Shown here: positions 54,145 to 54,282 of the stretch, piece after piece
Numbering within the stretch: the stretch's first letter is position 1
Layout of the letters: every line of letters begins with the position of its first letter
DNA from: a virus
Taxonomy: Duplodnaviria > Caudoviricetes
Direction: 5' to 3' (one strand)
IMG/VR virus record: IMGVR_UViG_3300031994_000081
Coordinates: 7,932-71,931 of that record
Length of the DNA: 64,000 nucleotides
Program-made: the position numbers and the translations under genes
The notes under the pieces: generated by a model
Told to the model about the DNA's origin: nothing
Databases searched by the model: none
The model's input: only the letters and a program-made list of their open reading frames with translations

Positions 54145-54282
54145 TGGGGGAGATTGGACTTGAACCAATAGACTTTTCATTTACAGTGAAATGCTTTAAC
54201 CATTGAAGTAACCCTACCATAACACCACTAACTAAAGGGAACAAATGGCAGGGGATGAACTTGCTTTTTAAGCTACTCCCCC
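54145..54282 (-). tRNA. tRNA-Tyr(GTA) interrupted by a 65-nt insert in the D arm (54205-54269)
   Basis: GGGGGAG TA GCTT [insert] AATGGTTA AAGC A TTTCA CTGTAAA TGAAA AGTCT ATTGG TTCAAGT CCAAT CTCCCCC A gives a perfect 73-nt cloverleaf once the insert is removed. Confidence 0.8.

What the first reader, a model, noticed from the sequence alone, without database searches (positions are those of the whole stretch)
54145..54282. tRNA-Tyr(GTA) with a 65-nt structured insert in the D-loop: possible new tRNA intron type
Seen: removing 54205-54269 yields a fully paired 73-nt cloverleaf (GGGGGAG/CTCCCCC acceptor, GCTT/AAGC D stem). The insert folds on itself (CCCTGCCAT/ATGGTAGGG, AAGT/ACTT) and carries the X/Y module. 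It has no group I core (no P7, no terminal G) and no obvious bulge-helix-bulge. Inference: it is either excised by an unknown endonuclease/ligase route or retained as a protein-docking appendage. Standard tRNA finders would probably miss or fragment it.
Basis: partly seen in the sequence, partly recalled or inferred. Interest (0 to 1): 0.82.

Follow-up and report, generated by a model that had tools for sequence, protein, structure and literature searches.

The report
Ro60-docking handle grafted into a tRNA
The 65-base insert in this phage tRNA is probably not an intron: it is a conserved, structured RNA "handle" found only near the phage's Ro60 gene, which makes this RNA an unusual Y-RNA/tRNA chimera.

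Summary
Removing window 54269-54205 (minus strand) leaves a fully paired tRNA-Tyr(GTA) cloverleaf, and the insert folds better than shuffled copies.

The insert is neither unique nor random. It is one copy of a conserved two-helix module: P1, a GUUCY strand, P2, a UAGUG strand, and a GUUACUUC tail. Compensatory changes across 24 diverse copies support both helices.

In 67 related ~100-kb rumen/gut phage loci the module sits on the Ro60 (TROVE) strand, mostly within 1 kb downstream. In five complete genomes it occurs only in one cluster near Ro60.

The module takes several positions: either side of the D-loop, the anticodon stem or loop, wrapped around a whole tRNA (the window's tRNA-Gln), or free-standing.

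In unrelated phages and Clostridia, with Ro60 only 25-37% identical, the same two strands flank a permuted tRNA-like domain. That is the YrlA layout, and Rfam YrlA gives sub-threshold hits there.

I found no splicing enzymes, no bulge-helix-bulge and no spliced RNA contig.

Best reading (about 0.68): a retained Ro60-docking handle on a tRNA scaffold, a new variant of Y RNA. Ro60 binding is inferred, not shown.

Anticodons vary sharply among near-identical bodies.

Earlier notes of this scan report similar Ro60-plus-handle RNA arrays in other phages.

The parts
54145..54282 (-). 138-nt tRNA-Tyr(GTA)-like RNA that carries the handle in its D-loop (the finding)
   Evidence: Sequence; cloverleaf after conceptual excision; orthologs in L124 and L125.
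54270..54282 (-). 5' part of the tRNA body: acceptor 5' strand GGGGGAG, U8 A9, D-stem 5' strand GCUU
54205..54269 (-). 65-nt insert. Sub-parts: AAAAAGC (54269-54263, looks like a vestigial D-stem 3' strand); P0 AAGU (54262-54259) pairing with ACUU (54209-54206); P1 CCCUGCCAU (54253-54245) pairing with AUGGUAGGG (54220-54212); J1-P2-J2 UUGUUCCCUUUAGUUAGUGGUGUU (54244-54221); tail UUACUUC (54211-54205).
   Evidence: Fold; model R1 hit 54257-54203 at 56.7 bits; covariation of P1 and P2.
54145..54204 (-). 3' part of the tRNA body: D-loop AAUGGUUA, AAGC, anticodon arm (GUA at 54184-54182), 5-nt variable loop, T arm, acceptor 3' strand, A73. No CCA is encoded.
54299..54424 (-). Sister RNA 16 nt upstream: a tRNA body (anticodon AGG after excision) with the same handle (54393-54343) in the anticodon stem
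   Evidence: Rfam tRNA 49.2 bits with a 65-nt insertion; R1 at 54.7 bits; ARAGORN after excision.
54560..56011 (-). Ro60 ortholog (TROVE + vWA), 483 aa, directly upstream in the same orientation
   Evidence: Pfam PF05731 at 6.2e-19 and vWA_Ro60; best PDB matches are Thermus phage Ro60 9KOP/9L5Y at 1.2e-14.
54082..54109 (-). Hairpin GGGAGUG-UGUAUG-CACUCCC followed by UUUGUUUG, 36 nt after the RNA's 3' end. Probable terminator of the Ro60-RNA-RNA unit.
   Evidence: Read from the sequence. The consensus scan did not list it, so this is inference.
57602..57740 (-). Open (permuted) copy of the handle wrapped around tRNA-Gln(UUG). X strand 57740-57710 (AAGCAAA-GUGGUG-..GAUAGAGU-UACUUC), tRNA 57709-57637, Y strand 57626-57602 (ACUCUGUC-ACUAAUUCCCU-UUGCUU), then a U-run.
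   Evidence: The L124 ortholog keeps both helices, with G.U changed to G-C in P1.
57852..58074 (-). Open copy of the handle enclosing about 165 nt of non-tRNA cargo. X strand 58074-58043, Y strand 57878-57852.
   Evidence: pairing read from the sequence: ACCCU/AGGGU and AUGUAUGC/GCAUAUAU.
53522..54055 (-). Conserved basic 177-aa protein of unknown fold that follows the RNA array. Possible partner; function unknown.
   Evidence: Homolog downstream of the array in 43 of 67 loci; no Pfam, PHROG or NCBIfam match; AF2 pLDDT 88.8.

Best explanation
The 65-nt insert is a retained protein-docking handle, not an intron. It is the local copy of a conserved RNA module with two helices (P1, P2), an asymmetric internal loop made of a ..GUUCY strand and a UAGUG.. 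strand, and a GUUACUUC tail. This module is the counterpart of the Ro60-binding stem of bacterial YrlA-type Y RNAs.

In this clade of ~100-kb rumen/gut phages the handle is closed into a hairpin and grafted onto ordinary-topology tRNA cloverleaves. Here it sits on the 5' side of the D-loop; the junction is ambiguous between 13/14 and 15/16. If it lies at 15/16 it falls in the naturally length-variable part of the loop, and G18, G19 and the T-loop are unchanged.

The transcript runs Ro60 mRNA, AGG chimera, Tyr chimera, terminator, and would yield a 138-nt RNA. The phage Ro60 ring would bind the handle, while the tRNA body, with free acceptor end and anticodon arm, serves as the effector or recruitment domain, as proposed for the tRNA-like domain of YrlA.

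Shown: the structure, its conservation and covariation, the exclusive linkage to Ro60, the multiple topologies, and anticodon variability.

Inferred: that Ro60 binds the handle, that the insert is not removed, and what the tRNA body recruits.
For: 1. The module is real. On 24 diverse copies, 87.6% of cells pair against 69.1% in shuffles. The covariation score is 0.464 against 0.160, reached by 0 of 500 shuffles, and slid controls score at most 0.11.

2. Linkage to Ro60. Model R1 finds 134 copies in 67 Ro60 loci, all on the Ro60 strand. A stricter motif count places 74 of 88 copies 0-1 kb downstream of the gene. In five complete ~100-kb genomes every copy (2-4 per genome) lies in one cluster 0.1-5 kb from Ro60. 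In the window, the two full matches and two weak matches at the open-form copies all lie within about 2 kb of Ro60.

3. The same X motif sits 0.1-0.5 kb from Ro60 genes that are only 25-37% identical, in unrelated phage contigs. It also sits next to Ro60 in three Clostridia genomes. Three jumbo phages that carry it all carry a TROVE gene.

4. In those lineages the two strands flank a T arm, a closed acceptor stem and a D arm, which is the YrlA topology. Rfam YrlA matches end to end at 35 bits (E 1.5e-6 locally). In that alignment its outer stem, CGAA-motif strand, middle stem and 3' loop strand fall on P2, UAGUG, P1 and GUUUUCU.

5. 186 of 487 X motifs have a strictly complementary downstream Y partner, against 20 for a reversed control. 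P1 and P2 sequences differ freely among them.

6. The position of the handle differs among orthologous bodies: the 5' side of the D-loop in the window, L124 and L125, and the 3' side in L130, L145, L150, L181 and L185. Elsewhere it sits in the anticodon stem or around whole tRNAs. This fits a portable docking domain.

7. Some sister RNAs have no anticodon loop once the module is removed, for example L129. Excision would therefore not give a tRNA.

8. No RtcB or tRNA-splicing endonuclease is present in the window's record or in four complete relatives.

9. An RNA-library contig covers 53846-56491 colinearly with no differences.
Against: - No binding data exist. The Ro60 link is genomic association only.
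- The handle lacks the published Rsr motif GNCGAAN0-1G (PMC4201824).
- Rfam YrlA does not hit the window at all. It hits distant relatives only below its gathering score (35 against 69 bits), and much of that score comes from the T and D arms.
- The tRNA body keeps a canonical 7-nt anticodon loop and an invariant T-loop. That would also fit a tRNA meant to be decoded after excision.
- The conserved 177-aa protein next to the array could be the true partner.
- The host may supply RtcB; Bacteroides thetaiotaomicron has it in the control.
- Contigs cannot exclude a spliced minority form.
Confidence: 0.68

Rival explanations
1. A genuinely new kind of tRNA intron. The module is recognised by a protein (Ro60, the 177-aa protein or a host RNase), both junctions are cut, and a host ligase such as RtcB joins the halves to give a functional 73-nt tRNA-Tyr.
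For: Excision restores a perfect cloverleaf. The bodies keep canonical anticodon loops, an invariant T-loop and covarying stems. The module tail ends exactly at the mature 5' end of tRNA-Gln, so a cut after GUUACUUC is conceivable. Bacteroides, a possible host group, carries RtcB (control).
Against: - The same module forms the terminal stem of YrlA-like RNAs, where nothing can be spliced out.
- The distance from the tail to the first exon base varies: CUUC|AGC, CUUCAAA|AGC and CUUCA|GGA.
- Some sisters lack an anticodon loop after removal.
- No bulge-helix-bulge can be drawn, and no ribozyme or group I/II match was found.
- No ligase or endonuclease is encoded in the phages.
- A bacterial tRNA-Tyr normally has a long variable arm (established knowledge). 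This one has 5 nt, so it is a poor TyrRS substrate.
- No spliced contig was found in four RNA libraries.
Confidence: 0.12
2. The module is a retained docking or regulatory element whose partner is not Ro60. The partner might be the conserved 177-aa basic protein downstream, or the module might be a cis-acting processing or stability element of the Ro60 operon.
For: A homolog of the 177-aa protein follows the array in 43 of 67 loci. It is basic, folds confidently (pLDDT 88.8) and has no known function. The Ro60 link is by association only.
Against: The 177-aa protein gave no match in the distant lineages that carry the motif next to Ro60 (L288, L289, L335, L339, L340, L365 and others show Ro60 but no p177). 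Ro60 was found in every sufficiently large contig checked with two or more motifs.
Confidence: 0.12
3. A decaying tRNA pseudogene disrupted by insertion of a repeated or mobile element, with no function for the chimera as such.
For: The closest ortholog (L124) carries a C.A mismatch in the anticodon stem and an A.C mismatch in the T stem. The insert's first bases look like a duplicated D-stem strand, suggesting origin by recombination.
Against: Across 16 distinct D-loop-type bodies the T-loop is invariant and the stems covary. The chimeric arrangement persists in dozens of genomes whose Ro60 proteins are about 65% identical to the window's.
Confidence: 0.05
4. The 24-nt UAGUG..GUUACUUC motif is a phage promoter whose start site is the base after CUUC. 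That would explain why it abuts the 5' end of tRNA-Gln.
For: It is a bipartite conserved motif in one orientation. It ends exactly at tRNA-Gln position +1.
Against: The motif's variable spacer base-pairs with a partner strand, with extensive compensatory change, in both hairpin and open forms. That is an RNA-level constraint. A start inside a tRNA would give a truncated RNA.
Confidence: 0.03

Closest known systems
YrlA (Y RNA-like A; Rfam RF02553; Chen et al. 2014, PMC4201824; Wang et al. 2018, 10.1101/312249)
   Same: It is encoded next to a Ro60 ortholog, often in tandem with other Y-like RNAs. It combines a bulged protein-binding stem with a tRNA-like domain carrying canonical T and D arms. 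Relatives of this handle in other phages have exactly the YrlA order (stem, T, closed acceptor stem, D, stem) and give sub-threshold RF02553 hits.
   Different: The RNA ends lie in a normal acceptor stem, not in the handle. The handle is a closed hairpin inserted in the D-loop. A complete anticodon arm is present. The published GNCGAAN0-1G motif is replaced by UAGUG, and a conserved GUUACUUC tail is added. RF02553 does not detect it.
Phage Ro60 with Y-RNA-like partners (mycobacteriophages and others in PMC4201824; Thermus phage phiLo Ro60 with Yrl1/Yrl2, PMC12135203)
   Same: A phage-encoded TROVE + vWA protein with small structured RNAs encoded beside it. The window's Ro60 has the phiLo protein as its best PDB match.
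   Different: The phiLo Yrls are simple stem-bulge-stem RNAs with a CGAA motif (PMC12135203). They are not tRNA cloverleaves carrying an inserted handle.
Archaeal non-canonical tRNA introns (bulge-helix-bulge, cut by EndA, joined by RtcB). Named from established knowledge.
   Same: Short inserts at varied positions of tRNA genes, including the D-loop and anticodon stem. Removal restores a cloverleaf.
   Different: I could draw no bulge-helix-bulge at the junctions, and no EndA or RtcB is present in the phage genomes. The insert has a conserved sequence and structure of its own and also occurs outside tRNAs and around whole tRNAs.
Animal Y RNAs (Ro60-binding bulged stem plus effector loop)
   Same: The logic is modular: a conserved Ro60-binding helix plus a variable effector module. 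Several paralogous RNAs occur per genome.
   Different: The Ro-binding motif is different (GGUCCGA/UUGACU in animals) and animal Y RNAs have no tRNA body. Short resemblances to hY3 (AGUGGUGUU, UUUGUUCC) that I recalled from memory were not tested and may be chance.

Membership tests
YrlA / bacterial Y RNA (RF02553) | Encoded adjacent to a Ro60 (TROVE) gene | tested here: met
   The array begins about 135 nt after the Ro60 stop and this RNA about 277 nt after it. The same linkage holds in 67 loci and five complete genomes.
YrlA / bacterial Y RNA (RF02553) | tRNA-like domain with canonical T arm and D arm | tested here: met
   Full cloverleaf with G18 G19 and a T54-C56, A58 T-loop.
YrlA / bacterial Y RNA (RF02553) | 5' and 3' ends pair to form the Ro-binding stem; the tRNA-like domain is permuted, with a closed acceptor stem and no anticodon arm | tested here: not met
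   The ends lie in an open acceptor stem, the handle is an internal hairpin and an anticodon arm is present. The feature is met by related units elsewhere (L340, L365) and, in part, by the window's tRNA-Gln unit.
YrlA / bacterial Y RNA (RF02553) | Conserved GNCGAAN0-1G motif on the 5' strand of the stem (PMC4201824) | tested here: not met
   The equivalent strand reads UAGUGGUG.
YrlA / bacterial Y RNA (RF02553) | Score at or above the Rfam gathering threshold (69 bits) | tested here: not met
   No RF02553 hit in the window even at E <= 10. Distant relatives score 35.4 and 35.6 bits.
YrlA / bacterial Y RNA (RF02553) | Physical binding by Ro60/Rsr | not testable with these tools
   Needs RIP, EMSA or a structure.
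tRNA intron, archaeal/eukaryal type | Bulge-helix-bulge at the exon-intron junctions | tested here: not met
   By inspection of the folds, the junctions lie in a D-loop context with a 4-bp P0 and 5-nt/2-nt internal loops. They do not form two 3-nt bulges around a 4-bp helix.
tRNA intron, archaeal/eukaryal type | Splicing endonuclease and RtcB-type ligase available | tested here: not met
   PF01974 and PF01139 are absent from the window's record and four complete relatives. Host enzymes were not assessed.
tRNA intron, archaeal/eukaryal type | A spliced product exists | tested here: inconclusive
   Only unspliced contigs were seen in RNA libraries. Raw reads were not available.
Group I / self-cleaving ribozyme intron | Catalytic core recognisable | tested here: not met
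   The Rfam E-value scan of 54050-54520 lists only tRNA and chance-level hits. The true group I introns of this window are detected elsewhere.
Canonical bacterial tRNA-Tyr | Class II body with a long variable arm (established knowledge) | tested here: not met
   The variable loop is 5 nt, AGUCU.

The most novel reading that the evidence does not exclude
These RNAs are Ro60-tethered, true-topology tRNA bodies whose anticodon triplet is the exchangeable, specificity-giving part. Near-identical bodies carry GUA, GAU, GGU, CAU or AUU, or UGG, AGG or GUA. In this reading the phage uses the Ro60-handle particle to present, protect or sacrifice chosen tRNA look-alikes, for example as decoys or shielded substitutes for host anticodon nucleases that attack specific tRNAs. 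That would be a programmable Ro60 ribonucleoprotein used in phage counter-defence. Neither the decoy role nor any nuclease was tested here.
Probability: 0.15. Interest if true: 0.85.

Novelty: new variant of a known kind. Interest (0 to 1): 0.6.

Why it matters
Ro60 and Y RNAs are conserved from bacteria to humans, yet the role of the tRNA-like part of bacterial Y RNAs is still open.

This clade supplies natural variants in which the presumed Ro60 handle is attached to complete tRNA cloverleaves at several positions, next to sister RNAs with the classical Y-RNA layout. That is a ready-made set of constructs for three questions:
- which part binds Ro60;
- whether the tRNA body is charged, modified or cleaved;
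- why the anticodon changes so fast.

It also shows that a tRNA gene can carry a 65-nt structured insertion in the D-loop while G18, G19 and the T-loop stay unchanged. Whether the elbow still folds remains to be tested.

For annotators, such genes are missed or mis-called by standard tRNA finders.

It corrects an attractive but unsupported reading, a new intron class.

Tried and rejected
- **RNA evidence.** Four metatranscriptome runs were available only as assembled contigs. One sheep-gut contig spans Ro60 and both chimeras unspliced, and no joint crosses either insert. This shows that colinear sequence is present in an RNA library. It shows neither transcription nor absence of splicing.
- **First viral-contig motif scans.** These used too loose a motif or a wrong spacer (N8-12 instead of N4-9) and returned chance hits. 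The scan was repeated correctly.
- **Genome-contig scan.** 116 of 120 listed hits have no Ro60 nearby. That matches my own estimate of the chance background for 16 specified bases in 596 Gb. Only the 4 hits with Ro60 were used.
- **ARAGORN enumeration of splice offsets.** This was too permissive to fix junctions. It was used only to name anticodons.
- **RtcB idea.** My first guess, that the 483-aa neighbour was the ligase RtcB, was wrong. It is Ro60.
- **Promoter idea.** Rejected because the motif's spacer covaries with a partner strand.
- **177-aa protein.** No Pfam, PHROG or NCBIfam family. Foldseek against PDB gave nothing at E <= 0.001, VIA-align gave Z <= 3.0, and the ESM Atlas gave nothing above 0.76. 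Its function stays open.
- **Literature.** I found no paper describing a Ro60 handle inside a tRNA D-loop. Burroughs and Aravind 2016 (NAR 44:8525) is not held and could not be read.
- **Complex prediction.** Not used. It takes no RNA, and I make no protein-protein claim.

Full report
**Observation**

On the minus strand, 54282-54145 is a tRNA-like gene split by 65 nt. ARAGORN and Rfam see only a damaged tRNA at 54144-54218 (33.8 bits). When 54269-54205 is removed in silico, ARAGORN draws a 74-base tRNA-Tyr(gta) with all stems paired. Because AA flanks both junctions, the insert can be placed at 13/14, 14/15 or 15/16. The insert alone folds into AAGU/ACUU plus a 9-bp helix at -17.9 kcal/mol, z = -3.2.

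**Surroundings**

- Sixteen bases upstream lies a second interrupted tRNA, 54424-54299. Rfam tRNA scores it at 49.2 bits with a 65-nt insertion, and it reads anticodon AGG after excision.
- Directly upstream of both, in the same orientation, is a 483-aa ORF. I first suspected a ligase, but it is a Ro60 ortholog: Pfam TROVE 6.2e-19 and Ro60-type vWA. Its best PDB matches are the Thermus phage Ro60 structures 9KOP/9L5Y.
- The window is an IMG/VR phage record of about 72 kb, about 71% complete. It comes from sheep/bovine gut samples.

**The insert is a conserved module**

Both inserts share ..UGUUCCCU..GUGGUG-N9-10-GUUACUUC. The motif GUGGUG-N8-11-GUUACUUC occurs four times in the record, all on the minus strand and all within about 2 kb of Ro60.

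Sixty-seven related viral loci carry a Ro60 homolog at 57-90% identity. Nearly all have one to three interrupted tRNAs of 126-146 nt just downstream.

An alignment of 24 diverse inserts gives the consensus: P1 (8 bp), a ..UGUUCY strand, a variable hairpin P2, a UAGUG.. strand, the P1 return strand, and UUACUUC. The pairs are strongly supported:

| Measure | Observed | Control |
|---|---|---|
| Cells paired | 87.6% | 69.1% in shuffles |
| Covariation score | 0.464 | 0.160 in shuffles (0 of 500 reach the observed value) |
| Covariation score, partner slid by 1-3 columns | - | at most 0.11 |

Distribution of the covariance model R1:
- In the window it gives two full matches, the two inserts (56.7 and 54.7 bits), plus two weak matches at the open-form copies.
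- It finds 134 copies in the 67 loci, all on the Ro60 strand.
- In five complete ~100-kb genomes it finds 2-4 copies each, always in one cluster 0.1-5 kb from Ro60.

**Several topologies**

- Among orthologous bodies with the same acceptor stem and T arm, the handle sits on the 5' side of the D-loop in the window, L124 and L125. It sits on the 3' side in L130, L145, L150, L181 and L185.
- In other RNAs it is in the anticodon stem (28/29), for example tRNA-Lys(UUU) in L135 and tRNA-Thr(UGU) in L134. In L129 it replaces the anticodon loop outright.
- The window's tRNA-Gln (57709-57637) is wrapped by an open version. The UAGUG-type strand ends exactly at the tRNA's 5' end, and the GUUCY-type strand follows its 3' end. 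P1 (8 bp) and P2 (7 bp) form between them. The L124 ortholog changes a G.U to G-C in P1.
- A fourth copy encloses about 165 nt of non-tRNA sequence.
- Across all loci, 186 of 487 X motifs have a strictly complementary Y partner downstream, against 20 for a reversed control. P1 and P2 sequences differ freely, and the joining strand almost always ends in UUCU.
- The array in L130 shows the full range. After the Ro60 stop come two small open units, each closed by its own 5' and 3' ends, the second followed by a U-run. Then come an anticodon-type chimera, a D-loop-type chimera and a last unit.

**Link to known Y RNAs**

With the corrected motif, the X strand also lies 0.1-0.5 kb from Ro60 genes that are only 25-37% identical to the window's, in unrelated phage contigs. 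It lies next to Ro60 in three Clostridia genomes. Three jumbo phages that carry motif clusters all carry a TROVE gene on the same strand.

In these lineages the two strands flank an anticodon-like hairpin, a T arm, an acceptor stem closed by a loop, and a D arm. That is the architecture of YrlA (PMC4201824).

Rfam YrlA matches two such units end to end at 35 bits, below its 69-bit threshold. In that alignment:
- the YrlA outer stem falls on P2;
- the strand holding the CGAA motif falls on UAGUG;
- the middle stem falls on P1;
- the 3' loop strand falls on GUUUUCU.

Much of that score comes from the T and D arms, so this is positional equivalence, not proof of homology. Closing P2 with a loop and opening the acceptor stem of such an RNA gives exactly the anticodon-type chimera of this window.

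**Against an intron**

- No bulge-helix-bulge can be drawn at the junctions.
- Rfam finds no ribozyme or group I core here, while it does find the window's true group I introns.
- The spacing between the tail and the first body nucleotide varies.
- Some sisters have no anticodon loop left after removal.
- PF01139 (RtcB) and PF01974 (splicing endonuclease) are absent from this record and four complete relatives.
- An RNA-library contig spans 53846-56491 colinearly, and no contig skips either insert. Contigs cannot exclude a spliced minority.

**Features of the tRNA body**

In 16 distinct D-loop-type bodies the T-loop is invariant and the stems covary. Positions 34-36 are the most variable unpaired positions, at 1.4-1.5 bits.

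Bodies with identical stems carry different triplets: GUA/GAU, UGU/GGU, and GGU/GAU/CAU. The label "Tyr" rests on the anticodon alone. The 5-nt variable loop is not that of a bacterial tRNA-Tyr (established knowledge). No CCA is encoded.

**Mechanism proposed**

Ro60, the AGG chimera and the Tyr chimera form one unit that ends at a hairpin plus U-rich tail at 54109-54082. This terminator is read from the sequence and was not called by the scan.

In this model the 138-nt RNA keeps its handle, Ro60 docks on it, and the tRNA body acts as the effector domain. If the junction lies at 15/16, the handle projects from the variable part of the D-loop and need not disturb the elbow.

Confidence is about 0.68. 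The rivals are:

| Rival | Confidence |
|---|---|
| True intron | 0.12 |
| Another protein partner, such as the conserved 177-aa basic protein downstream (43 of 67 loci; confident model with no known fold) | 0.12 |
| Pseudogene | 0.05 |
| Promoter | 0.03 |

**Novelty**

Phage Ro60 genes with Y-like RNAs are known (PMC4201824, PMC12135203). I found no description of this handle or of a handle grafted into a complete tRNA.

Earlier notes of this scan describe comparable Ro60-plus-handle arrays, some called tRNA-Y-RNA chimeras, in other phages. I did not check those. I file this as a new variant of a known kind.

Noticed in passing
window 54425-54559 (minus strand): The spacer between the Ro60 stop and the AGG chimera can form a long-range 8-bp stem (CACACCAC/GUGGUGUG) enclosing two hairpins, followed by a GCCCU..AGGGC hairpin. 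It may be a further small RNA that lacks the GUUACUUC tail.
   Followed up: no
window 53522-54055 (minus strand): A conserved, lysine/arginine-rich 177-aa protein follows the RNA array in 43 of 67 related loci. The AF2 model is confident (pLDDT 88.8), but nothing similar turned up in PDB, Pfam, PHROGs, NCBIfam or the ESM Atlas.
   Followed up: partly
D-loop-type chimeras in L124-L190 and window 54180-54186: The anticodon triplet is hypervariable among otherwise near-identical tRNA bodies (GUA, GAU, GGU, CAU, AUU; UGG, AGG, GUA). Positions 32, 33, 37 and 38 and the stems are kept.
   Followed up: partly
window 58642-58726 and 54299-54424: These tRNAs have A at position 34: Leu(AAG), and Pro(AGG) in the interrupted gene. 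Relatives show Cys(ACA) and Ile(AAU). This is unusual for bacteria and suggests reliance on an A34 deaminase, or non-decoding roles.
   Followed up: no
window 57042-57100 (minus strand): A sub-threshold HDV-like ribozyme match (RF02682, 28.9 bits against 44) lies immediately 3' of the phage tmRNA (57448-57098). It may be a 3'-end processing ribozyme.
   Followed up: no
window 60954-61004 and 63894-63951 (minus strand): These are partial tRNA matches (25.8 and 24.4 bits) with good anticodon (CAU) and T arms and an acceptor 3' strand, but no ordinary 5' half. One encodes CCA. A further T arm with acceptor 3' end lies near 61010-61060. They may be more rearranged or interrupted tRNAs.
   Followed up: no
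window 27847-28064 and 40820-41032 (minus strand): Two group I introns score above the Rfam threshold (75.9 and 69.8 bits) inside protein-coding regions.
   Followed up: no
L136, L142, L162, L163 (about 4450-4520, or 2805-2880 in L163): In several relatives the first unit after Ro60 is an open handle wrapped around a whole, otherwise normal tRNA (Lys UUU or Arg UCU; cargo 79-88 nt), like the window's tRNA-Gln unit.
   Followed up: partly
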